A stretch of DNA of 28,566 nt from a virus. Where the stretch lies: the IMG/VR virus record IMGVR_UViG_3300009431_000983. The stretch is one strand, 5' to 3'. Below the pieces are notes generated by a model. The model was given only the letters and a program-made list of their open reading frames with translations, was not told the origin of the DNA and made no database searches. This document shows positions 1,184-28,120 of the stretch, in pieces; position 1 is the stretch's first letter; each line of letters opens with the position of its first letter. A program made the translations under genes and the position numbers.

Positions 1184-1571
1184 CTTGTTGAACCTCCGTT
1201 CCTTTGACGGTCCCCAAGGAAACCCGCTCCTCTTCAGAAAAACAGGTATCTAGATATCGAAAACCCCTGAACGACTTAAGGCCCTCACCCCAGGGTCGCT
1301 CCAACTTCTGAAAATCCGGAGATCTCCACACGACGTGAACCCCCTTCCAGTCTTTATCGTGTACCTCGCAGTGCATATCCCGATCCGTCACTTCGTGCAC
1401 CTTAGCCTTGGCGACGACTTCGCCATTCAACTGAAACCAGATGCTCTCTCCTGGAGAAAGTCGTTTGGGTCTGGCCGATAAAGTGTGCCACTCGATGAAC
1501 CCCTCTCCCAAATCATAGTCGTTCCAAAATGACTCTGCGTCCCCCTTCCTGACACACACTACCACGTCCAT
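1176..1571 (-). CDS. hypothetical protein (possibly a small PUA-like beta-barrel; function unknown)
   Basis: ORF 1176..1652 trimmed to the internal ATG at 1571 (MDVVVCVRKGD...). That start lies 1 nt after the TGA of the upstream methyltransferase (TGAgATG coupling). The longer N-terminal extension would overlap the methyltransferase by about 80 nt. No recognisable catalytic motif. Confidence 0.5.
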   Translation of the reverse strand: MDVVVCVRKGDAESFWNDYDLGEGFIEWHTLSARPKRLSPGESIWFQLNGEVVAKAKVHEVTDRDMHCEVHDKDWKGVHVVWRSPDFQKLERPWGEGLKSFRGFRYLDTCFSEEERVSLGTVKGTEVQQGV

Positions 1572-1572
1572 C

Positions 1573-2178
1573 TCACACCTCCCCTTTGCAGAAAATCGTA
1601 GTCGTCCGAAAACGATGATTGGTGGACCTGGCGATCCCGATGAAACCTCCAAGCTGCCATCCGTCTTTTTTCCTGAACGGAGGATAGACGCAGTCTAACC
1701 ACACCAAGTAACCACCAGCTCTCGTAACCGCGGCGCACTCAATAACCACCGGCTTCCTCTTAACCATCGGAAAGTTGTACTTCTTGGCGTCCTCTTTACT
1801 GTACGGAGGGTCCGCAATAACCAAATCGAACTGGCCTGGCTCGAAAAACTCGCTCAACTGATGAGCATCGCCCTGAACGTCCACCTCTCCCTGGATGTCA
1901 AACCGAGTATAGTTCCCTTCAGGTAGGGATCCAGAAAAAAGATGTAAAATGTTCTCCGCATCGGGAAACATGGACATGACTCTCTTGAGGTAATTCGGCG
2001 GATACGCCCCGTAGAGTCTGCTCTTGTTCCTGAAATCGTTGCCTAAACACCAGTACCCAGTGAGCCACTCTCTACCGTTGTTCTCCGTAACCACCAGATG
2101 GGAAGCGGGCCACTTCGCGAAAGCAGCGTTGTAAAGCCGGGCTCGGTGTTCAAGCTTCCAGTGAGAATTCATCGGCAC
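1573..2178 (-). CDS. N6-adenine DNA methyltransferase (gamma-like order: FxGxG then DPPY)
   Basis: 201 aa. HLFSGSLPEG (motif I-like) is followed about 40 aa later by LVIADPPYSKED (motif IV DPPY), a classic amino-methyltransferase signature. Overlaps the downstream methyltransferase by 29 nt. Confidence 0.75.
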   Translation of the reverse strand: MPMNSHWKLEHRARLYNAAFAKWPASHLVVTENNGREWLTGYWCLGNDFRNKSRLYGAYPPNYLKRVMSMFPDAENILHLFSGSLPEGNYTRFDIQGEVDVQGDAHQLSEFFEPGQFDLVIADPPYSKEDAKKYNFPMVKRKPVVIECAAVTRAGGYLVWLDCVYPPFRKKDGWQLGGFIGIARSTNHRFRTTTIFCKGEV

Positions 2179-3355
2179 TTTCCACCTTCACTTCGGTTAA
2201 GAGACCTAACTCCTCGTTCACTCGTTCCTCGGCCTGACTTGCATAATCGTCCCCGATCTCCACCAGAACCGCTTCCCTGCCGATCTCCGCGGCAACTTTA
2301 CCAACCGTCCCAGACCCACCGAACATGTCCAGAACTCTACAGGGCGCTGCCTCTCCCTCAACTTTACAATTACAGTCCTGAACCCAGCCCACGGGATGGT
2401 CCTCTTCCAGGACTCTAAAAAACGGTCTACCACACCCTCCACAACACCCGCCGTCGCTGGTACCTAACTTCAGGCACCTGCGCACCAAATTCGGAGGAAA
2501 CACCGCGTAGTGTTGCCCAGGATAGTTCTGGAGTCCGATTCTCCACACAGATCGAATGTTTTTACCCCTCTTTGCGAATTGACTGGCGTCGGACCGGTCC
2601 TCACTTCCAGCGGCCCAACCTCTTCCCTGTGAACCTGCACGTACTTTGGCCCCTCCCGAGAGCGGATATTCTATTCTCTTCCTGGAAGCCTCACTGTAGG
2701 GCTCTCTGTTGCCTTCCATGTCATAGAAATACGAATCCTCTCCCTTCGTCAGAAGATAGAGGTACTCGTGTATCCGATTGGGTCTGCCGGACCCATTCTT
2801 TCTCTTCAGTATCTTACCCTTCCAACACTCCCCGCACGCTCCGTCCTCGCAAGACTCGCACTTACCAACCACCTTGTAATGAGCATCGTGGACGCTCTCT
2901 GGGAAGACGTTGGGCTTTTCCCAGACACAGTCACATTTGTGAGTCCAGCCCTCCTTCATCATCTCCTGAACCACCCGAGAAGGCACACACAGCAAGTTGC
3001 CTTTACGGTAATCCCCATGAGTCTTCTTGCAAAAGGAATCTCCGATGTTTAACCAGAAAATACCGTCGGACCTCAAAACACGAAAAGTCTCTCTGAAAAT
3101 CTCCACCAGGTGTTCGATGTAGAGGTCTGAAGTAGGCTCCCACCCCAACTGCCCTATCCAGGCACCGCAATCAGCACAAGTACCGTCATCCACCCAGGTA
3201 TGCTCACACCCCGCCTCTCCCCCATACGCCAGATCCGGAGCTTCGTACTTTCGAAGCTGGTAGTACGGAGGAGACGTTATCACACAATGAAAGTACTCAT
3301 CGGGAATACGCCCTAAAACGGACAGAGCGTCCCCCCTAACGATGCTAATGGACAT
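2150..3355 (-). CDS. DNA methyltransferase (beta-class N6A/N4C) with Cys-rich zinc-finger-like inserts
   Basis: 401 aa. N-terminus GDALSVLGRIPDEYFHCVITSPPYYQLRKY (motif IV SPPY). C-terminus VLDMFGGSGTVGKVAAEIGREAVLVEIGDDY (motif I FGGSGT), i.e. beta-class circular permutation. Inserts CEHTWVDDGTCADCGAW and CESCEDGACGECWKG are paralogous to the 1..1183 protein. Confidence 0.85.
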   Translation of the reverse strand: MSISIVRGDALSVLGRIPDEYFHCVITSPPYYQLRKYEAPDLAYGGEAGCEHTWVDDGTCADCGAWIGQLGWEPTSDLYIEHLVEIFRETFRVLRSDGIFWLNIGDSFCKKTHGDYRKGNLLCVPSRVVQEMMKEGWTHKCDCVWEKPNVFPESVHDAHYKVVGKCESCEDGACGECWKGKILKRKNGSGRPNRIHEYLYLLTKGEDSYFYDMEGNREPYSEASRKRIEYPLSGGAKVRAGSQGRGWAAGSEDRSDASQFAKRGKNIRSVWRIGLQNYPGQHYAVFPPNLVRRCLKLGTSDGGCCGGCGRPFFRVLEEDHPVGWVQDCNCKVEGEAAPCRVLDMFGGSGTVGKVAAEIGREAVLVEIGDDYASQAEERVNEELGLLTEVKVESADEFSLEA

Positions 3356-3370
3356 AACTACTTTTGCCGG

Positions 3371-3892
3371 TCAGAACTTACTGACGACTTGCCCACCACT
3401 CTCCTTCGATTCCCCATCAGTCCCTGTTGGTTTCCCAGCTTCCTCACGCGGCCCCACGAACGCTGAAGGTGAAACCTCTTCCACTTCTTGAACATCCACA
3501 ATCTCCCACTGTTCGTTATCATGCCCCTTCCTCTGGTCCATCAGCCACCAGGCCAACTCACCGTTCCCTGTGGATACTGCTTCTCTGATCTTCCTACGAA
3601 TCCTGTTTTCTTGAGCAACACCCTCCTGTTGCTCTTTCATCTCCTCACCGATTGCGCCAGGCATCGACACATCGTCATAGCTCCAGACGTTACTGGACAT
3701 TCGCCGTCTGTAGATAGCTAACGCAGCCGCCCTACACCGCAACTCAGAAGAAGCGTCGTAAACCTTGAGCCCGTCCGGTTCCTTGACCACCAAAACCTTA
3801 ACCGGGAATTTCGACGGTTTGGTTCTACCGTGACAGTCCTTGTATTTCTTACCGCTACCACACGGACAAGGCTTGTTTCTTCCCGTTTTCAT
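3371..3892 (-). CDS. SEC-C metal-binding motif protein, function unknown
   Basis: 173 aa. N-terminal KPCPCGSGKKYKDCHG matches the SecA-C-terminal (SEC-C) zinc-binding motif. The rest is acidic and uncharacterised. Confidence 0.6.
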   Translation of the reverse strand: MKTGRNKPCPCGSGKKYKDCHGRTKPSKFPVKVLVVKEPDGLKVYDASSELRCRAAALAIYRRRMSSNVWSYDDVSMPGAIGEEMKEQQEGVAQENRIRRKIREAVSTGNGELAWWLMDQRKGHDNEQWEIVDVQEVEEVSPSAFVGPREEAGKPTGTDGESKESGGQVVSKF

Positions 3893-3911
3893 TCCAAAAT
3901 GTCCTAAAGAG

Positions 3912-3943
3912 GGTCACCGTTTCCGTCCCTGGAAACGGTGACC
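3912..3943 (-). terminator. perfect 13-bp GC-rich hairpin (GGTCACCGTTTCC-gtccct-GGAAACGGTGACC) 13 nt after the stop of 3957..4199
   Basis: Seen directly. On the minus strand it is followed by CUCUUUAGGACAUUUUGG, a weak/interrupted U tract. Candidate intrinsic terminator or mRNA-stabilising stem-loop. Confidence 0.4.
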
Positions 3944-3956
3944 AGACCCAACAGCA

Positions 3957-4199
3957 CTAGTCGTAGTCCCCGTCGTCTAGAAGATCCACCTCTCTGGCAA
4001 TACTCGATTCATTCAAGTAGCGCTCCAAGTGCGCTTTGAGATTGGGGTGCAAATCCGTCATCCCAGACAATCTGACTAAAAACTGCAAGCCTTCATCAGT
4101 ACAACCCACGAACCCAATCGTTCTTCCCGCATTCTTTCCCGTCTTGAACTTGTATCCGGAAGCCTCCTTGAATGTCATCTCGACGCTTGCTTCCATCAA
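3957..4199 (-). CDS. hypothetical small protein (80 aa)
   Basis: Start ATG overlaps the stop of the upstream NDT-like gene in an ATGA arrangement (translational coupling). Ends 13 nt before a perfect 13-bp hairpin. Confidence 0.55.
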   Translation of the reverse strand: MMEASVEMTFKEASGYKFKTGKNAGRTIGFVGCTDEGLQFLVRLSGMTDLHPNLKAHLERYLNESSIAREVDLLDDGDYD

Positions 4200-4759
4200 T
4201 CCTCCTCCAAAGCGTCCTCAGAAAAAAGACTAGGACAAGATCTGTATTCGCTAAGAAGAATACCCAACGCTTCCAGGGGATCTTCTACCAGAGGTCCTCC
4301 GTCGTATTCCTGATGCAGAGGATTCAAAATGCGAGTAGTCCCATAAGTATAGGCCAGCCACATGTCGGGAAAATAGCACGGCCCACTTACCCACACCTGC
4401 TTACCTAAGGCCCTGGCGGTAGCCACCTCCGTAAGAGTCCCGTACACGTCCTGGCTGGAAATCCAGGCGAAAGTCACATCTGCCATCCTCACCGCTTCCC
4501 GAGATAGACGCCCCAGAATTACCCTCGCCCTGAAACGGTCCTGCCTGGCGATCCCGTCACAAATCTCCAAATATGGTCCGGTGTAGTCTAATCCGTCACC
4601 TAAACCGTCAGTGATTATTCGCCACGCTCTAGGTACTGTGTCCAACCTGTGATGTGAAGTCGCATATCCCTCAGGGAACTCACTAATCACCGGATCTCGC
4701 CAGCGCCCCGTAGGACCACTCACCTTACCCGCCAGGTAGAACGCTATCCTCTCGCTCAC
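4196..4759 (-). CDS. nucleoside 2-deoxyribosyltransferase / DNPH1(Rcl)-like N-glycosidase superfamily protein
   Basis: 187 aa. N-terminal RIAFYLAGKV (IYLAG-type motif) and C-terminal DVTFAWISSQDVYGTLTEVATARALGKQVWV (D..G T.E.G.A.A.GKPV-like motif) match the NDT/DNPH1 flavodoxin-like fold family as I remember it. Start overlaps the end of the PurA-family gene (4756..4759). Confidence 0.6.
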   Translation of the reverse strand: MSERIAFYLAGKVSGPTGRWRDPVISEFPEGYATSHHRLDTVPRAWRIITDGLGDGLDYTGPYLEICDGIARQDRFRARVILGRLSREAVRMADVTFAWISSQDVYGTLTEVATARALGKQVWVSGPCYFPDMWLAYTYGTTRILNPLHQEYDGGPLVEDPLEALGILLSEYRSCPSLFSEDALEED

Positions 4760-5889
4760 TTTTCTTTGAACCCCAAAAAGTCCCAGACATGGTTCTGCTG
4801 AGGCCCAGTACCCACCAGAATCACCGGAAGTCTCGTTTCCTCCCGCACCTGTCCAATGAACTCCCGAACCTTGGGAGGTAGCTCAGAAAACTCGTCTCCA
4901 CATGTGCCGAAACAGCTATAGTCAAGATAGTTAGCGAAGTTCAGTACTAGCTTGGTCACACCGTTCAGCCGACACGCTCTCTTGATCTGCTCCATGGAGA
5001 AGGTTGCCACCCGCCGCACCCTCTTAGTGACAGTCGTCAACTCCATCAAGTCGTAGTCCTCCGGGTATCCTGCTTCCTCCTTAATCTGCTCCCAGGTGAT
5101 CTCCTCTTGGTCCGGATACCAGTCCCCGGAATAGCCAACTTGCCTGCCGCCCTCAACCACGTTACCCACCCGTATCGGATAGGGCCTGAATACACCATAC
5201 ACGTCACCCAGGTCTCTGGGTGAAATGCCCGTATCCGTCAATTCCCTGGAGACGGTACACTCACGAGAAGTGCAAAACGGATAGGACTGACCGTGTAGCA
5301 TCCCCAAAGAAAAACCCTGGCTTCCTTCAGCCAGAAACATCCCCTGCTCCACAGCTTCCTGGATTACGTTGAACCACTCCCCCTCAGGCACAACCATAGA
5401 CGACAATTCCGATACATCCCTTGCCAGAACTACTCCCTCTCCCCGCATCATCCTCTCTACCTGAACGGCCCCCGACCCCTGCATGGTGGACGCCAAATGC
5501 TTAGTACTTCCCTCATTACCCACCTTTCCACTTTCCACCTCGGCATGCTTTTCGGTTACAACCATCGCCCTCGGATGAATGTGCACCGAAGAACTGTCAA
5601 GAGAACACTCATTTATCTCCTGTAGAAGTCTCTCAACGAAAAATCCCGCCCCAGGACCCACGTAAACTTCGACATCTTGTCCCTGATGCCTGAGAAAAGC
5701 ACTTACCGGAATCAACTTGGACACGAATTTACGGCCGTCCGCCAGTACTATAGTGTGTCCGGCATTTGGCAGATTATTTGTCCCCGCCCCCGTTACGTTG
5801 AACCTTTCCGCCAGATATCCAGCGATCAGACCCTTCCCACAACTACCGAACTGCAAATCCACCACAACGTTGAAACAACCACGAAGCAT
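4756..5889 (-). CDS. adenylosuccinate synthetase family enzyme (PurA/PurZ-like), divergent P-loop
   Basis: 377 aa. NVVVDLQFGSCGKGLIAGYL aligns with the PurA P-loop VVVGtQWGDEGKGKivD. NNLPNAGHTIV aligns with GGhNAGHTvv (conserved His). QGFSLGMLHGQSYPFCTS aligns with the QGtlLDidhGTYPfVTSS region of PurA. The SD GGAAGGGAGAA sits 8 nt upstream of the ATG. Confidence 0.75.
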   Translation of the reverse strand: MLRGCFNVVVDLQFGSCGKGLIAGYLAERFNVTGAGTNNLPNAGHTIVLADGRKFVSKLIPVSAFLRHQGQDVEVYVGPGAGFFVERLLQEINECSLDSSSVHIHPRAMVVTEKHAEVESGKVGNEGSTKHLASTMQGSGAVQVERMMRGEGVVLARDVSELSSMVVPEGEWFNVIQEAVEQGMFLAEGSQGFSLGMLHGQSYPFCTSRECTVSRELTDTGISPRDLGDVYGVFRPYPIRVGNVVEGGRQVGYSGDWYPDQEEITWEQIKEEAGYPEDYDLMELTTVTKRVRRVATFSMEQIKRACRLNGVTKLVLNFANYLDYSCFGTCGDEFSELPPKVREFIGQVREETRLPVILVGTGPQQNHVWDFLGFKEK

Positions 5890-5968
5890 GGAAACATTCT
5901 CCCTTCCAAGAAAGAGCGGTCAAAACTCCCATTTTTTCTACTTTGATGAAATCAGGCGGTTGTTCCCG

Positions 5969-8764
5969 TCAACCGCTGCACCCGTCACCCGCTCCGCAGT
6001 TCAAACACTTGTGACAGGTCCCATTACGCACCATCATGAATCCGCACCCTGGGCAAAGTGGCGCGTCCTCCGTCATCCTGAAAGCGTGGTCCTTGGTTTC
6101 AGCCTGTCTGATGGACGTTTCCTGTTCTTCTCTCTCTTGATTGTGCACCTCTTCCTCGTGGCCGTCGCCACTGACCTCAGGTATGAAGCTCTCCGAAGAG
6201 TCCAAGTCCTCAAGAAACTTGATACCAAGCCAACGGAACACATAGTCTACCACCGACTTGGCCAACCGTATATCCGGATTCTTAGTGTGGCCCGCCGGCT
6301 CGAAACGCATGTAACTCAGCTTGTCCACCAGGGCCTCAAGAGGAACACCATACTGTAGAGCGATAGAAGAAACAATGGCAATCGTGTCCATCAGACCAGA
6401 AATCGCACTCCCCTGCTTCGCCATCTTCAGGAAGATTTCCCCCGGCCTCCCATCATCGTACTTGCCGACCGTAACGAACCCTTCGAAACCTCCAATGTCG
6501 AAACGATGCGTGAGGGACTGCCTCTCCCCCGGAAGGTGCTCCCGCTCTGGACGAACCGCCGCCTTTTCTTCCTTACTCTTTGAAGTGCCGGAATTCAGAG
6601 GCTGCGCCTTCTTGCAGTTGTCCCGGTAGATAGAAATGGACTTGAGTCCCATCTTCCAAGCCTGAACGTACAAATCAAGGATCTCAGGTCCGGTCGTTTC
6701 CTCCGGAACGTTTACCGTCTTGGAAATTGCCCCTGAGAGAAATGGCTGAACCCCAGCCATCATTCTGAGGTGCCCGCTGTGATGGATCGACCGAGTACCG
6801 CTTAAAGGAACAAGAGCGCAGTCGAACACGGACAAGTCATCTTCTCTAAGACCTGGCGCTCCTTCGATGGTTTCTTTGGACTCCAGGTGGTCAAGAATGC
6901 CTGAAACCTCCCCGTCCCTGTAGCCCAGCACCACCAGTCCGTCCCGAACAGACTGGTTGACAATGCTCATTTCCCCTCCGCCTGAAAGCTTCTTCGTCTT
7001 TACTAGGGCGAGATCCGGCTCAATCCCTGTGGTATCGCAGTCCATCATGAAAGCGATAGTTCCTGTAGGCGCTAAGCACGTTACCTGGGCATTCCTGAAT
7101 CCGAAATGTGCACCATCCTTCAAAACATCTGCCCAAACATCCGAAGCCTTGTTACCTAGCTCCGTCTCAACTCCCCTGAAACCGTGACTTGCTGCCTGCG
7201 CGGCATGCTCGTGCATCACCGACATGAAAGACTGTTCGTTGTTGCGATATCCAGGGAAGACCCCCTTTCTCGAAGCCAACGAAGAAGAGGTCCTGTACGC
7301 TTCGCCCGTCATGACCGAAGTCAGAGCCGCAGCATAGTTGCGGCCTAAGTCACTGTCATAGGCGACACCCTTAGACATCAAAAACGCACCCAGATTGGCG
7401 TAGCCCAGACCAAGCGGCCTAAAATCGTTACTGTTCCTGGAGATCTTCGTTGTCGGATAGCTCGCCTTGCTCACAAGAATGTCCATGGCCGTGATTATCA
7501 CCCTGACCGTGTGACAGAACAGGGAAACGTCAAAAGACCCATCCTCACAAGTGAAACTCTTCAGGTTGAGAGATGCCAGATTACAGGCGCTATCGTCCAG
7601 GAACATGTACTCACTGCACGGATTGGAGGCGTTGACTCTGCCTGAATCCCTGCAGGTGTGCCAGTGATTGACGGTCGTATCGAACTGTAAGCCGGGATCG
7701 CCACAAGCGTAAGTTGACCTGGCGATCGCCTCAAGGATCTTCTTGGCGGGAATTGTGTCTACTGGCCTGCCCGTCACCACCTCGGTAGTTTGCCAGTCCT
7801 CACCCTTCTCAACTGCTGTCATGAAGGCATCCGGAACTCTCACTGAAAAGTTCGAATTCTGGAAAAAGACTGAACTATACGCCTCTCCGTTCAAAGAGTT
7901 GTCATATCCCGCCTCTACCAAAACTTGGGCCTTACGCTCCTCTCTGGTCTTGGCCTCAATGAAGTCCAGGATGTCCGGATGATCCACATTCAAAATCTGC
8001 ATTTTCGCGGCTCTGCGCGTCTTCCCTCCAGACTTGATGACACTAGCGAAAGCATCGTACCCCCGCATGAAAGCCAAAGGTCCCGAAGCAATTCCTCCAG
8101 CGCTCAAGTGCTCCTTGGAAGACCGGATAACGCTCAAGTTGGTGCCTGTACCAGAACCATACTTGAAAAGCATGCCCTCTGTCTTGGATAGCCCCAATAT
8201 GGAGTCCATGCGGTCTTCAACCGAGTTGATGAAACAAGCAGAGCACTGAGGACGATTCTCAATCCCTACGTTGAACCATACCGGACTGTTAAAGCAACCC
8301 ACCTGAAACAACAAGATGCTGGTCAATTCGTCCCTGAAGGTTTCAGCCTGCTCCTCTGTCTCAAAATAGTCCTGCTCCTCTCCCCACCTAGTGATCGTAG
8401 TCACCACCCTCCCAATCAACTGCTTAACACTGTATTCCCTACCAGGACTGCCAACTGCCCCCCGAAAGTACTTAGAGGCGACAACGTTGGTGGCGAGTTG
8501 AGACCAGGTCTTTGGTACTTCAACCCCCTCTTGTTCAAAAACGACTGTCCCGTCATCCCCGTTGATTACGGCCTTTCTGGTCTCCCACTCCACACGCTCG
8601 TATGGGTCCTTTCCTTTTACCGACCACTGCCTTTCGAGAGTAAGTACGCCCTTACCGTTTCCAGAAGACGGCCTAACGTCTCCTGCGGACTGCGTGGACG
8701 TTACTCCCTCTGTAATGCTTGCCCGTCCTCGCTCTACAGTAGCTACTGCTTGTCCCTCTGCCAT
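5969..8764 (-). CDS. nrdJ: ribonucleotide reductase, class II-like (adenosylcobalamin-type NrdJ) large protein with C-terminal zinc ribbon
   Basis: About 930 aa. ASKYFRG, NSPVWFNVG, CSACFI, GSGTGTNLS, NPCSEYMFLDDSACNLASLNL (RNR active-site Cys/Asn/Cys/Glu region) and C-terminal CPGCGF..CHKCLNCG. Start trimmed to the ATG at 8764 (MAEGQ), preceded by GGGAGGAGG. The longer frame starts with TTG at 8791. Confidence 0.85.
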   Translation of the reverse strand: MAEGQAVATVERGRASITEGVTSTQSAGDVRPSSGNGKGVLTLERQWSVKGKDPYERVEWETRKAVINGDDGTVVFEQEGVEVPKTWSQLATNVVASKYFRGAVGSPGREYSVKQLIGRVVTTITRWGEEQDYFETEEQAETFRDELTSILLFQVGCFNSPVWFNVGIENRPQCSACFINSVEDRMDSILGLSKTEGMLFKYGSGTGTNLSVIRSSKEHLSAGGIASGPLAFMRGYDAFASVIKSGGKTRRAAKMQILNVDHPDILDFIEAKTREERKAQVLVEAGYDNSLNGEAYSSVFFQNSNFSVRVPDAFMTAVEKGEDWQTTEVVTGRPVDTIPAKKILEAIARSTYACGDPGLQFDTTVNHWHTCRDSGRVNASNPCSEYMFLDDSACNLASLNLKSFTCEDGSFDVSLFCHTVRVIITAMDILVSKASYPTTKISRNSNDFRPLGLGYANLGAFLMSKGVAYDSDLGRNYAAALTSVMTGEAYRTSSSLASRKGVFPGYRNNEQSFMSVMHEHAAQAASHGFRGVETELGNKASDVWADVLKDGAHFGFRNAQVTCLAPTGTIAFMMDCDTTGIEPDLALVKTKKLSGGGEMSIVNQSVRDGLVVLGYRDGEVSGILDHLESKETIEGAPGLREDDLSVFDCALVPLSGTRSIHHSGHLRMMAGVQPFLSGAISKTVNVPEETTGPEILDLYVQAWKMGLKSISIYRDNCKKAQPLNSGTSKSKEEKAAVRPEREHLPGERQSLTHRFDIGGFEGFVTVGKYDDGRPGEIFLKMAKQGSAISGLMDTIAIVSSIALQYGVPLEALVDKLSYMRFEPAGHTKNPDIRLAKSVVDYVFRWLGIKFLEDLDSSESFIPEVSGDGHEEEVHNQEREEQETSIRQAETKDHAFRMTEDAPLCPGCGFMMVRNGTCHKCLNCGAGDGCSG

Positions 8765-8830
8765 GCTAACACTCCTCCTCCCTGTACCCAATGTTTACCT
8801 TCTCAACCTGAACTATCTGACGCTTCGCTG

Positions 8831-9454
8831 CTAGCCGAATAGAGCAGCGTCCACCACCTGCGAAGATACTGGACGATCGGACTTTCCCTGGGAAAGCCAC
8901 TCTTTGAACTGACCCCAGGTCAAAGCTGTAACGCTTCCTAGTCCTTTCCACCCAGGCTCGTAGTTACTTAAATATCCTTCTCTTGCCGCCTTCTCATTGG
9001 TGAACCCAACCATCACCTTGTGCTCATCGAACTCGCCATCCCAATTCTGGTCAACAACAAAAACGACTTCTGATTCCGGATTGTCTCCTATAAACACATC
9101 GATGTGGTCTCCATCAGCATCACTCTCTGTCAAACGGATATACCCGTAATGATGCTTCATCTTGATGGACCACTCCACGCCGTCCGAACTCTTTCCGCTG
9201 CGGGTTTGCCCCTTCCCTGTCTCAATCGTAATAGGGAGGCCCCGAACCGTAACTTTGCCTTTACGGTAATTCCCCGTCTCTTTCTGCTTTTCGGTGGGAT
9301 TTGGCTCGCACTTCTTGGCCGCCTCGTCAATCAGCTTCTTCAGGTCACCGTTCACCTGGGCAACCACTATCGACAGAAGCTGACTTGCCGACTTTAATCT
9401 TCCGTCTGCACCTATCACCACTGAAATCCCTATACCCGTTGTACCGTGCTTCAC
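8831..9454 (-). CDS. divergent family-I inorganic pyrophosphatase-like protein
   Basis: KHHYGYIRLTESDADGDHIDVFIGD resembles the PPase core NYGYI..T.S.DGDP.DVLV. Weaker matches elsewhere in the protein. Start uncertain: GTG at 9454 has no SD, while GTG GTG at about 9416 is preceded by AGGGA. Confidence 0.45.
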   Translation of the reverse strand: MKHGTTGIGISVVIGADGRLKSASQLLSIVVAQVNGDLKKLIDEAAKKCEPNPTEKQKETGNYRKGKVTVRGLPITIETGKGQTRSGKSSDGVEWSIKMKHHYGYIRLTESDADGDHIDVFIGDNPESEVVFVVDQNWDGEFDEHKVMVGFTNEKAAREGYLSNYEPGWKGLGSVTALTWGQFKEWLSQGKSDRPVSSQVVDAALFG

Positions 9455-9622
9455 GTTGACAGTTCGTCCGGCCTTGGCGGACTCTTTACAGCCGCAATAA
9501 AGGGCTATAAACAGCGAAATGTCTGTTCTGTCACAAGAAACTGCCCGTACACGACGAAGTGATGAACGAAACTGAATTCGCCCACCACTTCGTTATACCG
9601 ACTACAGGGACTACACCTATTT

Positions 9623-11154
9623 CTAACTTCTGGCCCAAAGTCTGGAGCGGAAATCGTAACTATATCCGCGGCCCTTCAGGTGCTTCTTCACTGCGTTGAT
9701 TTCCGACTTCGTGTAAGCCTCAAGCTCCGTTCCCTCAGGCAATCTCGCCGTAGTTCCCTCCTCATCGAGACTGCCGCTGGAGAACGTGCTCAAAAGTTCA
9801 ACGAGTCTCGCCTCAGTAACCTTGCCGTTACTCCCGGAAGGAGACTTGCTCTTCTTGGACGTCGTCTTGCGGCTCGCCTCCTCCTCAGGGTCAAACACTT
9901 TGCAACGAGTGATGACCGTCTGCTTGATTCCACGATATTCGTCATGCTTCTTGATGGTGCCCCGAACCAGCCGGTAGTCACCATATTCCCAGTCCTCATC
10001 ATAGTAGCTGGAGGAGAACCAGACAAATTGGTTGCCGTCTTCGTCTTCCAGCTTGTGGATGTGAGTGACTCCATAGTCTCCTTCGCTTCCCCGACGCTTC
10101 CGATATGTCTGCTGTTCAAAAACTTAAGGTCCCGCTCCTTGCGCTCGACTTCCCGCTCCATGTGTCTCTGATAGGAGGGGTAAATCGAAACCGCAAGGCC
10201 AATACCCCGACTGTCCACGTGCCCGATATTGGCCACGACCTTGATATTGTAAAGGTAATCGTTGTCTTCACCGACCGCAGCCGCCCACCATATCGCGGCC
10301 TCTGCCTGCTCCTTAACCTTGTCGGTCAGGGCTTCCCGGACGCTCTCCGCCCACTCAATGTCTCGTCGCTCCTTGAACCCACCACGAGGGGGTTCCATGT
10401 ACTTCATGACGCTGCATGCGGTGGACGTAGCACCGAAACCCTGCTCCCGGGCCTTGGTTGACGAAAGCCAGCCCTCGACCTTGATGACGGCTCCGGTCAC
10501 TTCCAGAAGATGCTTAAGGTCATAAAGCCGAGGACCTCCACCACCGAAACCTCCCTCAGTGTCGGAAGCCTCAGCCATGAGGTCCTTAAGGTCATAAAGC
10601 ATCGTTGCCCAAAGAGCCGCAGCATGAGGATCTTCGTTGGCGGCCCCCAAGAAATCCTGGATGCACTTCCGGCCAACCTGGACATAACGCCCGTCCTCGT
10701 GCTGCAGGACGAAAGTATCCTTGCGATTCCGGATAGTGCCGCAGTGGTCGCAAATCCGACCACGATTCCGCTGGTCCTCAGGACATTCCTCCCCAGGAAC
10801 ACAGCGAACAAGAGTAGCCTCTTCCAACTGCTGGATGGAAGCGATGAACTTCCAGCCCTGCAAGTGAGGCTTCTCGCCGGAAACCCTAATCTCGTGAAAT
10901 TCAATGATGGTAAGCCGCCGAGGGTCGAAGTTATCGAACATCTCCTCCGGATTGCAACCCTCTTCCAGGGGAATCTGAGGAGTGTTGGACTTTTCCTGGT
11001 AGTATCGCTGAACGGTCGTCCCGAGGTCATCCATCTGGACCTCCGGACGCCCGAGCTTCCTTGCGCGCTTGTTAATCTTCTCGACCGCTTCCTGAAGCGT
11101 CTGAAGATTAAAACCAGGAATGGCGTAGGTTTCTTCGAATCTCTCGTCCGTCAT
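9623..11154 (-). CDS. hypothetical CxxC zinc-finger protein, apparently requiring a -1 frameshift (or carrying a homopolymer indel) near 10118-10122
   Basis: Frame X (11154 down to about 10120) reads MTDERFEETYAIPGF...CDHCGTIRNRKDTFVLQHEDGRYVQVGRKC...ERDLKF. Beyond that point it degenerates into an Arg-rich low-complexity tail until 9790. Frame Y (-1) is open from 10123 to 9623 with no start codon and reads protein-like sequence (GSEGDYGVTHIHKLEDEDGNQFVWFSSSYYDEDWEYGDYRLVRGTIKKHDEYRGIK...GYSYDFRSRLWARS). One extra T in the T5 run would fuse X to Y, giving about 515 aa. Real start is the second ATG (11154), with GGGAGA 7 nt upstream. Confidence 0.5.
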
Positions 11155-11185
11155 GTCTCTGTCTCCCATAGGTAGGTTTTCCCCA

Positions 11186-11222
11186 CCTTTATATACACCG
11201 CTCAGGCGTTTGGTTTCAATCG
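11186..11222 (-). promoter_or_regulatory. promoter module P1 (minus strand cgaTTGAAAccaaacgcctgagcgGTGTATATAAAggtgGGGAAAACCTacct...GGGAGAcagagacATGAC)
   Basis: sigma70-like -35 TTGAAA, 17-18 nt spacer, extended -10 TGTATATAAA. A conserved leader follows. Drives the 11154 gene. Confidence 0.6.
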
Positions 11223-11232
11223 GGAGACAGTC

Positions 11233-12256: not shown

Positions 12257-13753
12257 TCAGGTTACAGTCAACTCACAGACAGAACTCAGTTGAACACCAT
12301 GTTCCTCAAAAAATCCAGGCTCTTCCAAAGCTAGAGACGCCACGCCTACCGCTAATCTGCACAGGGCTTCGTGGTACTCGTCATCCAAGTGATTCCCGCA
12401 AAACTCGTGTCCCAACTCGTGTATCAAAATCCTCAGATGCCTATCAGATATCTCATCGAAAAACGCTCTCCCCAAGCAACTCACGTTGTAGTCCAGAGTC
12501 CGGTTGCCATAAAGGGCCTCGAACTTTCTGGACTTCCCCCGCAGCCTGATCATCCGTACTTCGATTTCTATGTCCGCCACCCTCCTGGCAAGCTCCTTTG
12601 AAAACTCCGCCACCCTCCGCATTCCTCTCGTCCAGCCCTCCTCTGAAATCACCAGGTCTGGATCCTCCCCACCAGAACCCGGCCTTGGCGTAGGGAAAAC
12701 CCTCCCTGAAGGCTGCATGTTCTCGCTACGCCTGACATTCTTCCACTCACCACCACTTAAAGATCCGCCTGTCACAACGTTGAATCCGTTTGCGTAGGCC
12801 CGATAGTTGGCCTCCTTGTCCGTCGGATCCTGAATAACTCGGTCCCTGCCGAACCGATGAGTCAACATTGTGTCCAGTGCCTCATCCGAACAACGCTCAT
12901 CGCTCGTAGCCTCCCTTACCCAGGAATCGCTGGCGGCTTCCCTCTCGATTTCACCGTGCATTTCGTTCAACACGGCCACCCGCAAAGTCTTCAAGTAGTG
13001 AGGAGTGACGTTGTTCCTCTCCATGTTCAGGGGTACCTTTTGCTGAACATTGACATGCCACTCATCTCCTGTGGCCACCACCGGTAGCCCCATTTCGAAA
13101 ATCTGAGACTTCTCCCCATCACGAACCCGGAATAGCTCCACCGTGGTTTTGCGTATGCTCCGCCGCAAAACCCCATCCTCTCTGGCAATCAACGTCGCCA
13201 GACTCTCCTCGAAAGAGTGTACTGCCTCTGGCCTGCTGACTACTTCCCCGTTGAAAACGGTTACTACGTCTTCCGGGGGAATCAACGCCTCAACGTATCT
13301 CTCAAACTCTCCTACTTCCTCATCCGTAAGCTCCAGAACCCCGCAGAATACGGACCCCACTTGAGTCCCGGAGTCACTGGTTTTTCTCCGACCTCCCCGC
13401 TGGAAAGACACAGTACCCTTGGTGGTCTCGATTCTCGCGGACCGGCACAAGGATAGAATGAACTTCTCGCCTACATTGAACCGACCTCGCTTACCCGGAT
13501 CCTTCAGCTTCGTAGATTCTGCGAACAAAGTGTAAGCATGGGAAATGTCCCAAAATCCGGCGGGATCATCATCCACTACTCGGTATTCGTACATACCGCT
13601 ACCCCCGCCTCTCTTTCTCTCCAGAGAAATCTCCACCCTGGAGACATTCTGATCCCAGGCGTTCTGTATGGGTTCAGCGAGAATACAGGACTTCCCGCGC
13701 CTCTCGATGAGTTTACGCAGTCCTTCCTGGTCTACTTCGAACCAACTCGGCAT
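12257..13753 (-). CDS. GHKL-type (Bergerat fold) ATPase domain fused to HExxH zinc-metallopeptidase-like C-terminal domain
   Basis: 498 aa. N-terminal AEPIQNAWDQNVSRVEISL (E..NA.D N-box) and VVDDDPAGF (D.G.G-like G1 box). C-terminal RILIHELGHEFCGNHLDDEYHEAL (HExxH plus a downstream E). Confidence 0.6.
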   Translation of the reverse strand: MPSWFEVDQEGLRKLIERRGKSCILAEPIQNAWDQNVSRVEISLERKRGGGSGMYEYRVVDDDPAGFWDISHAYTLFAESTKLKDPGKRGRFNVGEKFILSLCRSARIETTKGTVSFQRGGRRKTSDSGTQVGSVFCGVLELTDEEVGEFERYVEALIPPEDVVTVFNGEVVSRPEAVHSFEESLATLIAREDGVLRRSIRKTTVELFRVRDGEKSQIFEMGLPVVATGDEWHVNVQQKVPLNMERNNVTPHYLKTLRVAVLNEMHGEIEREAASDSWVREATSDERCSDEALDTMLTHRFGRDRVIQDPTDKEANYRAYANGFNVVTGGSLSGGEWKNVRRSENMQPSGRVFPTPRPGSGGEDPDLVISEEGWTRGMRRVAEFSKELARRVADIEIEVRMIRLRGKSRKFEALYGNRTLDYNVSCLGRAFFDEISDRHLRILIHELGHEFCGNHLDDEYHEALCRLAVGVASLALEEPGFFEEHGVQLSSVCELTVT

Positions 13754-14593: not shown

Positions 14594-14625
14594 TTTCTCT
14601 GTCCCCTAAATAGAAGGTTTTCCCG

Positions 14626-14662
14626 CTTTTATATACACCGCTCGAAGCCACGAGTTCAATCG
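14626..14662 (-). promoter_or_regulatory. promoter module P2 (TTGAAC - N17 - GTGTATATAAAAGCGGGAAAACCT...AGGGGACAGAGA ATG)
   Basis: Same module as P1, upstream of PAPS-reductase-like gene 13763..14593. Confidence 0.6.
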
Positions 14663-14748
14663 TACATAGTAGTGGCGGTCCAACAAGGACCGCCACCCGG
14701 CGTGGCAGGAGCCAGCCGTTAGGGAAAACCCCCTAAGGGGTCAAGTTT

Positions 14749-16119
14749 TTATGCTGCGGTCATCCAAAGCCTTTCGTGAAACCGGTAGCTGAACCCGTTG
14801 GACTTGAGCCAACTCTTGACTCTCCGAATCAGTCCTGAGTCATACTCCTTCAGGGCCTTGCCTTCGGGGAGGCTAACGGCCAGCGGCTTGCCCTCGGCAT
14901 CCACCTTGACGGCGAAGGTCAAGACCTCCTCACTAGCATTCCCTCCCGAATTGCTCTCCAGCATGGACGTAGTCACGCTCTCGATATCGCCAGAGAGGAC
15001 CGAGTCCCAGTTACCGTCGAAACTCTTCTTGGCCTTGTCCTTGACCAGACCAGGAGCAGCGACCAGCATGTCCTCTATCGTCGGATAAACGTCCTCCTGA
15101 CGCTCAGCCAGGTAGATTCGGTTGCTGCGGGCCACTTCAGTGACCGGCTGTCCGCTCTCGGCGGCCATTTCTGCCAGGCGGGCCTCAATCTCTTCCCGGT
15201 CACCCCGGTGAAGACCCTCGACCTTCCGGTCGGCCCGTTGCTTCTTCCAGTAAATTCTCCGGACTCGGTAGACGGCCCATTCCTCTTCAGCGAGAACCTC
15301 TTCCAGGTTGCCCACGGCGTCCTCATTACCGTCATCCCGGACGCAGGTCTCGACGCTCTTTTTCGGATAAAGAGTCATGCGAGGGTTCAAAGCGGTGGAC
15401 ACCCGCTCCAGGAGCATGGCCTCAGCGGCGGCTTCCGGATGGTCCTGATAGCGGTCGAGAATCTCACCCTTGCCGTTGGAGAAAGGGCAGAAGGAGCAGC
15501 AACTCTTCTTCCAGGCGACTCCCAGAACTTCCTCGATGTACTGCTCGCACTTCTCACGACCCCACCCCCAGTCAACCAGGGGGTAACTTACGTTCCGGTA
15601 GTCCGTCGCGAAAGACTTGTCCCTCTCGACCCGCTTAAGCTCATCTGCGTTGAAGCCGATGATGTGCTTGTATTCCGTGCCAGGAAAGCTGTCGTGAATC
15701 CAGGCGTCCAGCACCACACCCTTGAACTTGATGGAGCACCGACGATTCCCAACCGTAAACTGAGGAACCGTTCCCGCCGAAGTGAGTTCATCACTCAGCG
15801 TGTACTGACCTTCCAGAAGAACCTCCGTTGGCTCATCAGTGTCGGACAGCACCACGTAGACCTCCCCCTCCTTGAGACTGGGGCCTTTGCGGGCCACCTG
15901 GACATAGCGAATGCCATGCTCCCGGAGAAGGGGCAAGATATGCTCTTCGAGCAACTTCTTGGTGTCTGGGAACTCGTTGCCGACTTGCGAGGTGAGAACG
16001 ACCAGGTCTTCAAGCTCGAAATCCCTGGAAGCCGGCTCAAGGATCCAACGCAGGAGGATGGCCGTTGAGTCAACGCCCATCCCGTAAGAAAGGATAATCG
16101 GAGTTTTGCTGTCTGTCAT
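14749..16119 (-). CDS. PAPS reductase / DndC-like PP-loop ATP pyrophosphatase family protein (long form)
   Basis: Start trimmed to the second ATG (16119). The first ATG lies inside the promoter -10 element GTGTATGTATATAAAAG. TPIILSYGMGVDSTAIL (PP-loop). KSCCSFCPF Cys motif. Long acidic C-terminal extension ending ...KSWLKSNGFSYRFHERLWMTAA. Confidence 0.7.
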   Translation of the reverse strand: MTDSKTPIILSYGMGVDSTAILLRWILEPASRDFELEDLVVLTSQVGNEFPDTKKLLEEHILPLLREHGIRYVQVARKGPSLKEGEVYVVLSDTDEPTEVLLEGQYTLSDELTSAGTVPQFTVGNRRCSIKFKGVVLDAWIHDSFPGTEYKHIIGFNADELKRVERDKSFATDYRNVSYPLVDWGWGREKCEQYIEEVLGVAWKKSCCSFCPFSNGKGEILDRYQDHPEAAAEAMLLERVSTALNPRMTLYPKKSVETCVRDDGNEDAVGNLEEVLAEEEWAVYRVRRIYWKKQRADRKVEGLHRGDREEIEARLAEMAAESGQPVTEVARSNRIYLAERQEDVYPTIEDMLVAAPGLVKDKAKKSFDGNWDSVLSGDIESVTTSMLESNSGGNASEEVLTFAVKVDAEGKPLAVSLPEGKALKEYDSGLIRRVKSWLKSNGFSYRFHERLWMTAA

Positions 16120-16148
16120 CTCTGTCCCCTGTAGGTAGGTTTTCCCTA

Positions 16149-16184
16149 CTTTTATATACACCGCTCAGGGACAGTTTTTCAATC
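16149..16184 (-). promoter_or_regulatory. promoter module P3 (TTGAAA - N17 - GTGTATATAAAAGTAGGGAAAACCTACCTACAGGGGACAGAG ATGAC)
   Basis: Near-identical to P1 across about 50 nt including the leader. Upstream of gene 14749..16119. Confidence 0.6.
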
Positions 16185-25038: not shown

Positions 25039-25203
25039 ACCGAGAACCCATCCCTGGGTTCTTACGCTCCTCTCTCTAGAGAAACGCTCTTTGCCAACTC
25101 AAAGGAGACTCTTTCACGTACCATGAAACCTTCTCTTAGGTCGCAAAGATCCCGCACAGAACACACTTACCTGGTTACACAAAAAACCTAGAAATCGCGC
25201 CTC

Positions 25204-25470: not shown

Positions 25471-25505
25471 ATCCCTGTCCTCGTGAAAATGTTTGCATCT
25501 CTACG

Positions 25506-25539
25506 AACATATACACACGAGAAACCAAGGATTTTAACC
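25506..25539 (-). promoter_or_regulatory. promoter module P9 (ggTTAAAAtccttggtttctcgtGTGTATATGttcg ... AGGACAGGGAT ATG)
   Basis: Upstream of 25204..25470. Overlaps the 3' end of the preceding ORF. Confidence 0.45.
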
Positions 25540-26210: not shown

Positions 26211-26244
26211 ACTATATACACCACAAGTCCCGAAAGTTTCAATC
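26211..26244 (-). promoter_or_regulatory. promoter module P5 (ggaTTGAAActttcgggacttgtgGTGTATATAgt)
   Basis: Upstream of 25928..26158. The leader ends GGGAGGACTGAGAC GTG. Confidence 0.55.
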
Positions 26245-27535: not shown

Positions 27536-27628
27536 GCTGCACCTCCTCTGGTAGCACACCAAAAAAAGAAACCTCGAAGCAACGTATCGAAAAACTCGGC
27601 GGTCCACAGTGACCGCTCCGCTTTGTGT

Positions 27629-27672
27629 ACTTTTATACATACACCACTGAAGTCACTTATTTCACCGAAATA
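27629..27672 (-). promoter_or_regulatory. promoter module P8, variant (GGTGAAAtaagtgacttcagtgGTGTATGTATAAAAgtac)
   Basis: Upstream of the secreted-protein gene, with an about 100-nt leader. Confidence 0.35.
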
Positions 27673-27685: not shown

Positions 27686-28120
27686 TTAGTAATCCGACGC
27701 ACAGATGTTTGCTCTCTTCATCCACAGCGCCCACACAAAATCTTTCAACTGGCCAACCACCCTAGGCGGTAATCTGCTCCCACCCAACCGCTTGTAAACA
27801 ATACCTAGAACGTTTCGATACAACCACCTGCTCCTCAACTCCCACACCGCCCGCTCATGGCGAGTTTCCAATACGAAATCCGTAACCTTCTTTACGGAAA
27901 TATTCACCGGCCTGGAAGCTCTTTTCACTTCCCCCGCTGGAGGAGACAACCTGAGATCCGAAGGAATGGGCTTATTCGGGTTTAGCAGATGAACCGGTTC
28001 CAATCCCACTCTCTTTCTTCGGGTGTTCTCCGCAATCATGGTCAAGTAGAGCCCATGAATCGCAGAAATACTACCCCCCATCCTCACTGATGACACTGGT
28101 AAAACCGCCCCGACACTCAT
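27686..28120 (-). CDS. hypothetical protein
   Basis: 144 aa. ATGA overlap with the upstream gene. Confidence 0.4.
   Translation of the reverse strand: MSVGAVLPVSSVRMGGSISAIHGLYLTMIAENTRRKRVGLEPVHLLNPNKPIPSDLRLSPPAGEVKRASRPVNISVKKVTDFVLETRHERAVWELRSRWLYRNVLGIVYKRLGGSRLPPRVVGQLKDFVWALWMKRANICASDY

What the first reader, a model, noticed from the sequence alone, without database searches (positions are those of the whole stretch)
11186..11222. Nine-fold repeated promoter + 5' leader module (other copies at 14626, 16149, 19369, 26211, 24056, 17939, 27629, 25506)
Minus-strand consensus is cgaTTGAAA-N17-gGTGTATATAAA(a)G(t/c)(a/g)GGGAAAACCT...(A)GGGGACAGAG(AC)ATGAC.

The -35 and extended -10 are near sigma70 consensus. 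In the best copies (P1-P3) the about 45 nt between -10 and ATG, including the GGGAAAACCT box and the SD, is also conserved. This implies a shared leader-RNA element with a shared regulatory or translational function, not just a promoter. In two cases the six-frame ORF start falls inside the -10 box, so the true start is the downstream ATG.
Basis: seen in the sequence. Interest (0 to 1): 0.5.

Follow-up and report, generated by a model that had tools for sequence, protein, structure and literature searches.

The report
Repeated promoter family in uncultured phage
A phage-like metagenomic contig carries nine copies of one two-part promoter-like motif in front of its gene blocks, three of them with an extra conserved 10-base box and ribosome-binding site. 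This is a normal way for phages to organise transcription, with one small unexplained detail.

Summary
The motif cGA-TTGAAA-N14-GGTGTATAT occurs nine times with identical spacing. All copies are on the coding (minus) strand, 34-102 nt upstream of a start codon. Shuffled sequence gives none, and every GTGTATRT in the window belongs to a copy. A possible tenth copy lies inside an ORF at 27900-27928.

P1, P2 and P3 also share a 71-nt module. Its conservation is mosaic. The first eight spacer bases are random, while GGGAAAACCT (predicted +1 to +10) and the ribosome-binding site GGGGACAGAGA are identical. The three downstream genes are not recent duplicates, so the blocks are selected.

The spacer is N14 to GGTG, or 18 nt to TATAT, not N17. 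TG abuts the -10, and the canonical T at -7 is present in only one of nine copies. The leader is not a structured RNA. Folds are unremarkable, P2 lacks the hairpin, and Rfam gives no match.

The core of the box also occurs twice exactly in inverted orientation, which is unexplained.

Best reading: a phage promoter family for a bacterial-type RNA polymerase, with a co-regulated subclass heading DNA-modification and nucleotide-metabolism operons. It is a new member of a known kind, of modest interest. No transcription data exist, and only one distant relative was found.

The parts
11191..11219 (-). P1 core promoter, TTGAAA-N14-GGTGTATAT (15/15). It heads the operon starting at ATG 11154: a RecT-like/phrog_2319 protein, then InPase, class II RNR and a PurZ-like gene.
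   Evidence: gene content
14631..14659 (-). P2 core promoter, TTGAAC-N14-GGTGTATAT (14/15). It heads the PAPS-reductase gene starting at ATG 14593.
16154..16182 (-). P3 core promoter (15/15). It heads the 456-aa PAPS-reductase-like gene starting at ATG 16119. The six-frame ORF start, GTG at 16161, lies inside the -10 box.
19372..19400 (-). P4 core promoter (15/15). It heads the 164-aa gene starting at ATG 19325.
26214..26242 (-). P5 core promoter (15/15). It heads the 76-aa gene (GTG 26158) and the 119-aa gene that follows.
24059..24087 (-). P6 core promoter, TTGAAA-N14-GGTGTATGT (14/15). It heads the block that runs to the vault-like 947-aa gene. The first start codon of this block is uncertain.
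17942..17970 (-). P7 core promoter, TTAAAA-N14-GGTGTATAT (14/15). The stop codon TAA of the upstream gene lies inside the -35. It heads the DUF932 gene starting at ATG 17899.
27637..27665 (-). P8 core promoter, GTGAAA-N14-GGTGTATGT (13/15). It has a leader of about 100 nt before ATG 27535, which starts a small protein with a signal-peptide-like N-terminus.
25509..25537 (-). P9 core promoter, TTAAAA-N14-TGTGTATAT (13/15). The upstream stop codon TAA lies inside the -35. It heads the 88-aa gene starting at ATG 25470.
27900..27928 (-). Possible tenth copy, GTGAAA-N14-GGTGAATAT (13/15). It lies inside predicted ORF 28120-27686 and is followed at once by a terminator-like hairpin at 27898-27879.
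11174..11183 (-). GGGAAAACCT box of P1, predicted +1 to +10 of the transcript.
14615..14624 (-). GGGAAAACCT box of P2.
16137..16146 (-). GGGAAAACCT box of P3. The 11-mer TAGGGAAAACC lies at 16148-16138.
14720..14730 (+). Inverted exact copy of the 11-mer TAGGGAAAACC. It lies just after the stop codon of the P3 gene, overlaps a bidirectional terminator-like hairpin (14728-14741), and sits about 107 bp upstream of the P2 box.
12691..12701 (+). Second inverted exact copy of TAGGGAAAACC, inside the coding region of the 498-aa gene of the P2 operon.
11156..11166 (-). Shine-Dalgarno box GGAGACAGAGA of the P1 gene. The same box, GGrGGAC(A/T)GrGA, also sits directly before start codons at 14596-14606, 16119-16129, 19325-19335, 25472-25482, 25895-25905 and 26160-26170.
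14672..14697 (-). Strong stem-loop of 11 bp upstream of P2, with no U-tract. Comparable hairpins lie upstream of P4 (19433-19466) and P1 (11243-11263, overlapping the end of the upstream ORF).
27599..27616 (-). Terminator-like hairpin plus T-run located inside the P8 leader, about 20 nt downstream of the -10.

Best explanation
The nine (possibly ten) copies are a family of two-part, sigma-factor-dependent promoters. They start successive co-directional transcription units in the early or middle region of an uncultured, probably large, probably 2-aminoadenine (Z-genome) phage.

A bacterial-type RNA polymerase holoenzyme would contact TTGAAA as a -35 element and GGTG-TATAT as an extended -10 element, 18 nt apart. 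Transcription would start about 7 nt downstream. The polymerase is most simply the host's, carrying its primary sigma factor.

Three copies (P1-P3) form a subclass. They carry the same promoter, an invariant GGGAAAACCT at about +1 to +10, and a short, purine-rich, unstructured leader ending in the ribosome-binding site GGGGACAGAGA. These three drive the DNA-modification and nucleotide-metabolism operons: two PAPS-reductase-like genes, and a RecT-like gene followed by InPase, RNR and PurZ-like genes. The box most likely gives them a shared level or timing of expression, either as a start-site-proximal operator or initial-transcribed-sequence element, or as a sequence-specific RNA site. It does not act as a folded RNA.

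Shown: the motif, its statistics, its placement, the mosaic conservation, and the lack of RNA structure. Inferred: promoter activity, which polymerase or sigma factor acts, the start sites, and what the box does.
For: - Fixed geometry in 9 of 9 copies. There are 10 sites matching at least 13 of 15 bases, against 0 in shuffles. GTGTATRT is found only in the copies.
- All copies are on the coding strand. The -10 lies 34-55 nt before a start codon (102 nt for P8), directly after the upstream gene's stop or overlapping it.
- P1, P2 and P4 are preceded by strong hairpins.
- Within P1-P3 conservation is mosaic. Spacer positions 1-8 are about 25% identical. CGA, the -35, GAGC-GGTGTATATAAA, GGGAAAACCT and GACAGAGA are invariant apart from one base in P2's -35 (TTGAAC).
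- The similarity stops at the ATG, and the downstream proteins are not recent paralogs.
- The only detectable relative is L059. It shares the P3-like protein at 56%, the vault-like protein at 50% and the PAPS reductase at 32% identity. It has three intergenic, gene-oriented GTGTATAAT sites where 0.03 are expected. This supports reading GTG+TATA(A/T)(T/A) as an extended -10 with a canonical TATAAT.
- No sigma factor or RNA polymerase gene is in the window.
- The leaders have no significant fold and no Rfam match.
Against: - There are no transcription data of any kind, and the host is unknown.
- T at -7, a key sigma70 contact, is present in only 1 of 9 copies. The TG abuts the hexamer rather than being one base away. 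The generic sigma70 scan finds only P7 and finds no excess of sigma70-like sites.
- Absolutely invariant spacing and an invariant GTGTAT are more typical of a specialised sigma factor.
- The window is only a 28.6-kb fragment, so a phage sigma factor or polymerase could be encoded elsewhere.
- The core of the box also occurs twice inverted, away from promoters. A simple initial-transcribed-sequence role does not explain this.
- Only three sequences support the subclass, and no close relatives exist to test conservation.
Confidence: 0.7

Rival explanations
1. The promoters are read by a specialised sigma factor rather than the host primary sigma. This could be a phage-encoded or ECF-like factor, or another phage-directed form of RNA polymerase. 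The family would then be a middle or late class, not a host-consensus early class.
For: - Spacing is identical in 9 of 9 copies. GTGTAT is invariant, instead of the TAnnnT pattern.
- T at -7 is missing in 8 of 9 copies.
- From my own knowledge, the -35 reads TGAAA(c) and the downstream element TGTATA, loosely like ECF promoters such as B. subtilis sigmaW (TGAAAC-N16-CGTATA).
- The window is a fragment, and large phages often encode sigma factors.
- No copy occurs in 1-11000, so other promoter classes may exist.
Against: - No sigma factor or polymerase gene is in the window.
- The relative L059 uses a canonical TATAAT after the same GTG.
- TTGAAA matches TTGACA at 5 of 6 bases.
- The spacing differs by one base from the sigmaW geometry, and the ECF-critical CGT is absent.
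Confidence: 0.2
2. The P1-P3 modules, and the terminator-plus-promoter arrangement at P1, P2 and P4, are mobile regulatory cassettes in the sense of the PeSLs of T4-type phages. Their similarity would be kept by recombination or gene conversion, and they would serve as crossover points for shuffling genes.
For: - Stem-loop followed by promoter at P1, P2 and P4.
- Several copies head ORFans in a region of small unknown genes.
- The modules are 71 nt long and flank unrelated genes.
- PeSLs are described as sigma70-like early promoters with an adjacent stem-loop terminator that mediate modular shuffling (PMC2839356, PMC4122927).
Against: - Homogenisation by recombination should also keep the neutral spacer bases identical, but spacer positions 1-8 are random.
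- Only 3 of 9 copies have a strong upstream hairpin.
- The hairpins differ in sequence.
- No related genomes are available to show indels bounded by the modules.
Confidence: 0.15
3. The GGGAAAACCT box works through base pairing or protein binding that involves its inverted copies. One version is a long-range RNA duplex between the 5' leader (UAGGGAAAACC) and GGUUUUCCCUA downstream in the same transcript, at the P3 mRNA 3' end and inside the P2 operon. The other version is an asymmetric DNA site for a phage regulator, with promoter-proximal and distal sites, comparable to the repressor 'stoperator' sites of cluster A mycobacteriophages (from my own knowledge).
For: - The exact 11-mer TAGGGAAAACC occurs 3 times in the window, once sense and twice antisense. 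I calculate about 0.014 expected (57,132 positions on both strands divided by 4^11).
- Both antisense copies lie in or behind transcription units that carry a box.
- One lies about 107 bp upstream of the P2 box.
- The box is as conserved as the -10.
Against: - The copy at 14720-14730 overlaps a G-rich stem plus T-run terminator. That composition raises the chance of resemblance, and terminated transcripts would lack most of the complement.
- P1 has no antisense partner.
- No candidate regulator was identified.
- There are only three sense and two antisense instances, and no comparative data.
Confidence: 0.2
4. The conserved leader is a structured cis-regulatory RNA, such as a 5' stabilising hairpin, an attenuator or a riboswitch-like element.
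For: P1 (GGTGGG-GAAAA-CCTACC) and P3 (GTAGG-GAAAA-CCTAC) can form a small hairpin.
Against: - The hairpin energy is only about -6.8 kcal/mol, with z about -1.
- P2 cannot form the hairpin, and its best fold is -2.4 kcal/mol.
- The 5' arm lies upstream of the predicted start site.
- The leader is only 32-36 nt long.
- Rfam gives no match at E<=1.
Confidence: 0.05

Closest known systems
Conserved host-type (sigma70-like) early promoters repeated through lytic phage genomes, including the PeSL promoter/stem-loop cassettes of T4-type phages (PMC2839356, PMC4122927)
   Same: A strong two-part promoter consensus is repeated many times in one orientation in front of small, mostly unknown genes. Some copies are preceded by a stem-loop that could stop upstream transcription. 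The modules flank unrelated genes.
   Different: The -10 is GGTG-TATAT(a), with the TG abutting and no T at -7. There is no AT-rich UP-like tract. Only 3 of 9 copies have a strong upstream hairpin, and these hairpins share no motif. There is no evidence of recombination at the copies. The phage is not shown to be T4-like.
Start-associated sequences (SAS/ESAS) of cluster K mycobacteriophages (PMC3203893)
   Same: A conserved motif of 11-13 nt that includes the ribosome-binding site sits a few bases before the start codon of a subset of genes. Here it is GGrGGAC(A/T)GrGA before 7 genes. In three of them it is combined with a second conserved element further upstream.
   Different: The sequence, host group and phage group differ. 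Here six of the seven carriers are the first gene after a promoter copy, so the box is part of a promoter-leader module rather than an independent start-site signal.
Extended -10 (TGn-TATAAT) promoters of bacterial primary sigma factors
   Same: A TG-containing extension lies directly upstream of a TATA-type hexamer. The relative L059 shows GTG-TATAAT without a consistent -35.
   Different: The register is shifted by one base, with TG touching the hexamer. In the window a -35 is also present at fixed distance, and -7 is usually A.

Membership tests
Primary-sigma (sigma70-type) promoter | -35 hexamer resembling TTGACA | tested here: met
   TTGAAA (5 of 6) in 5 copies. TTGAAC, TTAAAA (twice) and GTGAAA in the others.
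Primary-sigma (sigma70-type) promoter | Spacer of 16-18 nt between the hexamers | tested here: met
   18 nt to TATAT(a) in all nine copies. This is the upper end of the range.
Primary-sigma (sigma70-type) promoter | -10 hexamer TATAAT with A at -11 and T at -7 | tested here: not met
   TA at -12/-11 is present in 9 of 9 copies. Position -7 is A in 6, G in 2 and T in only 1 (P7). The generic scan requiring T at -7 finds only P7.
Primary-sigma (sigma70-type) promoter | Extended -10 TG at -15/-14, one base before the hexamer | tested here: not met
   TG is invariant but directly abuts TATAT, at -14/-13. The same register occurs in L059's GTGTATAAT.
Primary-sigma (sigma70-type) promoter | Transcript 5' ends about 7 nt downstream of the -10, and dependence on holoenzyme | not testable with these tools
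   No transcript data are available. The organism is uncultured and the host is unknown.
PeSL (promoter-early stem-loop) cassette | Strong sigma70-like promoter joined to an adjacent stable stem-loop terminator | tested here: inconclusive
   Strong upstream hairpins occur at P2 (-38 kcal/mol, z -5.6) and P4 (-41 kcal/mol, z -7.4), with a 10-bp stem at P1. The other six have none.
PeSL (promoter-early stem-loop) cassette | Copies act as recombination points bounding gene indels between related genomes | not testable with these tools
   No close relatives were found in any collection searched. Random spacer bases argue against recent homogenisation.
Known structured leader RNA (Rfam family) | Match to a curated covariance model, or a fold clearly better than shuffles | tested here: not met
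   No Rfam match at E<=1 over the whole window. Leader z-scores range from -1.4 to +1.8.
Cluster K mycobacteriophage SAS | The 13-bp SAS consensus close to start codons, in Mycobacterium phages | tested here: not met
   The box here is GGrGGAC(A/T)GrGA. This is an analogy of position only. I recalled the SAS sequence from memory and did not test it against the window.

The most novel reading that the evidence does not exclude
The GGGAAAACCT/TAGGGAAAACC box is a new orientation-independent regulatory site, acting as an operator or as an RNA-RNA pairing partner. It couples three DNA-modification and nucleotide-metabolism operons of a PurZ-encoding (2-aminoadenine) phage. The unusual -10 (GTG-TATATA, no T at -7, invariant spacing) reflects promoter recognition adapted to Z-substituted DNA or to a phage-specific sigma factor.
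Probability: 0.12. Interest if true: 0.6.

Novelty: new member of a known kind. Interest (0 to 1): 0.3.

Why it matters
The family gives a ready transcription map of nine units for an orphan phage lineage with no cultured relatives. It also supplies a compact, highly specific promoter signature (GTGTATRT) that could help find more of this genome and hint at the host's polymerase preferences.

If the phage really replaces A with 2-aminoadenine, as its PurZ-like gene suggests, these A/T-rich promoters would be a defined substrate for asking how RNA polymerase opens and reads Z:T DNA. The P1-P3 box would be a small, testable handle on co-regulation of DNA-modification genes. None of this changes current understanding of phage transcription.

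Tried and rejected
**Searches for relatives**
- Megablast of 19.6 kb against 50,697 phage records found no match.
- Exact-pattern scans for GATTGAAA-N14-GGTGTATAT gave only single matches. There were 31 in IMG/VR, mostly in low-GC contigs, and 108 in 185,579 reference genomes, scattered over unrelated taxa. This is my reading of chance-level background. No multi-copy genome or prophage appeared.
- Protein-anchored locus searches gave only relatives of 37% identity or less, or nothing. These used DUF932 in viral and metagenome contigs and the vault-like protein in viral contigs.
- The two JGI contigs carrying the DUF932 protein are 100% identical sub-fragments of the window.
- The three large homology searches gave nearest relatives at 56%, about 60% and 49% identity, so conservation of the intergenic modules cannot be tested.
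- Of four relatives' contigs with DNA, only L059 shares the -10 type.

**Host identity**
- RNR and vault-like homologs point to many phyla, including Planctomycetota, Acidobacteriota and Eremiobacterota. I drew no host conclusion.

**Alternative explanations tested**
- RNA structure of the leader was rejected.
- Gene duplication as the source of P1-P3 similarity was rejected.
- A second L059 motif, TTCCGGATTT-N15-GCAATAG, is absent from the window.
- GGGGACAGAGA is not enriched overall at 2 mismatches (19 observed against 18.8 expected). Only its placement before start codons is notable.

Full report
**What the window is**

The 28,566-base window is a complete metagenomic contig. The self-hit protein cluster reports a longest contig of 28,566 bases, and two shorter JGI contigs are 100% identical to parts of it. 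All substantial ORFs lie on the minus strand, and GC skew is negative throughout.

Gene content is phage-like:
- A PurZ-like adenylosuccinate-synthetase homolog. Its best solved relatives are 6FM1/6FKO (E = 1e-53), which I know to be the PhiVC8 PurZ, and 7ODX, the PurZ of S-2L (E = 3e-37). Its best NCBIfam model is amino_Aden_PurZ at 227 bits, below the 300-bit cut-off.
- A class II ribonucleotide reductase, an InPase-domain protein and DNA methyltransferases.
- Two distant PAPS-reductase-like proteins.
- A DUF932/TIGR03299 phage/plasmid protein.
- A 947-aa protein with vault-shoulder domains, whose phage homologs are in 460-735 kb uncultured phages.
- Many small ORFans.

No sigma factor or RNA polymerase gene, tRNA or Rfam family is present.

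**Checking the observation**

All nine listed copies exist. Anchored on the -35-like hexamer they read cGA-TTGAAA-N14-GGTGTATAT-a, with the same 14-nt gap in every copy and 13-15 of 15 specified bases matching.

The window holds 10 sites matching at least 13 of 15 bases, against none in 60 dinucleotide-preserving shuffles. The 8-mer GTGTATRT occurs exactly nine times on both strands, all in the copies, where 0.49 are expected.

A tenth, weaker copy (27928-27900) lies inside a predicted ORF of unknown validity. No copy occurs in 1-11000.

The intended meaning, a 17-18-nt spacer between hexamers, is correct. The remark that six-frame ORF starts fall inside the -10 box holds for the ORFs starting at 16161 and 27640. 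The likely true starts are 16119 and 27535.

**Placement**

Every copy is intergenic and oriented with the genes.
- The -10 lies 34-55 nt before the next start codon, or 102 nt for P8.
- The copy starts 4-20 nt after the upstream stop in five cases (P1, P3, P5, P6, P8).
- It overlaps the upstream stop codon in P7 and P9, where the TAA inside TTAAAA explains the variant -35.
- It follows a long gap with a very stable hairpin in P2 and P4.

The nine copies therefore divide 17 kb into nine co-directional units. This is the expected layout of promoters, and I take promoter function as the best-supported reading. No transcript data exist.

**How close the motif is to sigma70**

The fit is only partial. 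TTGAAA matches TTGACA at five of six bases. The downstream element is best read as GTG + TATAT(a), which leaves an 18-nt spacer. The TG touches the hexamer instead of being one base away, and T at -7 is present in only one copy. The generic sigma70 scan recognises only P7 and finds no excess of sigma70-like sites overall.

Support for the register comes from the only detectable relative, L059. It shares three proteins with the window at 32-56% identity. L059 has three intergenic, gene-oriented GTGTATAAT sites where 0.03 are expected. That is the same GTG extension in front of a canonical TATAAT, but without a consistent -35.

This favours a bacterial-type holoenzyme with an extended -10 preference. 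The invariant spacing and the invariant GTGTAT keep a specialised, possibly phage-encoded or ECF-like, sigma factor open as a rival.

**The P1-P3 module**

P1, P2 and P3 share a 71-nt module (repeat family D1, blastn, alignment). Its conservation is mosaic:
- Invariant: CGA, GAGC-GGTGTATATAAA, GGGAAAACCT and GACAGAGA. The -35 is also conserved, apart from one base in P2 (TTGAAC).
- Essentially random: the first eight spacer bases (1/8, 1/8 and 3/8 pairwise matches) and the 10-11 nt between the box and the ribosome-binding site.

Similarity ends at the ATG. The downstream proteins are unrelated (P1 against P3) or only 28% identical over 82 residues (P2 against P3). The similarity is therefore not a by-product of gene duplication and is unlikely to be recent copying. 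The blocks look selected.

With a start site about 7 nt after the -10, GGGAAAACCT occupies +1 to +10.

The ribosome-binding box GGrGGAC(A/T)GrGA is wider in distribution. It sits directly before seven start codons, six of them the first gene after a promoter copy.

**The leader is not a structured RNA**

The P1 and P3 leaders can form a 5-6-bp hairpin (about -6.8 kcal/mol, z about -1). P2 cannot, and the 5' arm would lie upstream of the predicted start. All nine leaders fold no better than shuffles, and Rfam gives nothing.

**An unexplained detail**

The 8-mer GGAAAACC occurs on the minus strand only in the three leaders, and its complement occurs there twice. Both complements extend to the exact 11-mer TAGGGAAAACC of P3, read on the plus strand. 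I calculate about 0.014 exact occurrences expected.
- One copy (14720-14730) lies just after the P3 gene's stop, overlaps a bidirectional terminator-like hairpin, and sits about 107 bp upstream of the P2 box.
- The other (12691-12701) lies inside a coding region of the P2 operon.

This suggests a site that works as double-stranded DNA, such as an asymmetric operator with distal partners, or as an RNA pairing partner of the leader. The terminator context of one copy and the small numbers keep this tentative.

**Comparison with known systems**

The arrangement works like the conserved host-type promoters that punctuate the early regions of lytic phages. For P1, P2 and P4 it also resembles the PeSL terminator/promoter cassettes of T4-type phages (PMC2839356, PMC4122927). 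The start-codon-proximal box resembles in position the start-associated sequences of cluster K mycobacteriophages (PMC3203893).

It is not a member of those families by sequence or phage group. The defining PeSL property, recombination at the cassettes, cannot be tested because no close relatives exist.

**Verdict**

This is a real and statistically solid repeated promoter family with a three-member subclass carrying an extra conserved box. It is a new member of a known kind. Interest is modest. The most interesting open points are the inverted box copies and how such A/T-rich promoters would function if the genome is Z-substituted.

Noticed in passing
window 4756-5889 (-): A PurZ-like adenylosuccinate-synthetase homolog. 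Its best solved relatives are 6FM1/6FKO (which I know to be the PhiVC8 PurZ) and 7ODX, the S-2L PurZ. Its best NCBIfam model is amino_Aden_PurZ, at 227 bits against a cut-off of 300. Together with the neighbouring InPase-domain protein (8831-9454) and class II RNR (ATG 8764 to 5969), this suggests a phage that replaces adenine with 2-aminoadenine. DatZ, MazZ and DpoZ were not identified in the window.
   Followed up: partly
window 19502-22345 (-): A 947-aa protein with major-vault-protein shoulder and repeat domains (SPFH-like). Its phage homologs are only in uncultured 460-735 kb phages (38-42% identity). Bacterial homologs at about 46-49% identity occur in many phyla.
   Followed up: partly
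window 14720-14730 (+) and 12691-12701 (+): Two exact inverted copies of the P3 leader 11-mer TAGGGAAAACC lie away from any promoter. One overlaps the terminator-like hairpin after the P3 gene. The other is inside a coding region.
   Followed up: partly
window 11222-11230 (-) versus 11159-11167 (-): A 9-nt sequence CTGTCTCCC just upstream of the P1 -35 is the exact complement of the P1 ribosome-binding region GGGAGACAG. In read-through transcripts from upstream it could mask the P1 ribosome-binding site. P3 has a 7-nt equivalent inside its spacer.
   Followed up: no
window 27599-27616 (-) and 27879-27898 (-): Both P8 and the possible tenth copy are followed within about 20 nt by a terminator-like hairpin with a T-run. 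These could be promoter-proximal terminators or attenuators, or sources of short transcripts.
   Followed up: no
window 9455-9789: A 335-nt gap with no convincing ORF lies inside the P1 operon, between the RecT-like gene and the InPase gene. It has no Rfam match and no copy of the promoter motif. Other motif-free gaps of about 165 nt lie at 25039-25203 and 16699-16861.
   Followed up: no
window 9790-11154 (-): The P1 gene product (phrog_2319) has as its best named phage relative a 'RecT-like ssDNA annealing protein' of the 309-kb Tunturiibacter phage Tunturi_5 (28% identity). Other hits are in jumbo Vibrio, Aeromonas and Salicola phages. This hints that the contig comes from a large phage.
   Followed up: no
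L059 15593-15970 (+); L059 gaps at 4634-4837, 5750-5826, 12885-12935 and 14786 onward: The relative contig L059 encodes a tmRNA. It also carries a second four-copy intergenic motif, TTCCGGATTT(c/g)(a/c)AG-N10-12-(T)GCAATAG, distinct from its three GTGTATAAT sites. This is probably a second promoter class. It is absent from the window.
   Followed up: partly
window 8764-8791 (-): The longest RNR ORF starts at TTG 8791, but a strong ribosome-binding site (GGAGGAGG) precedes ATG 8764, which is the likelier start.
   Followed up: no
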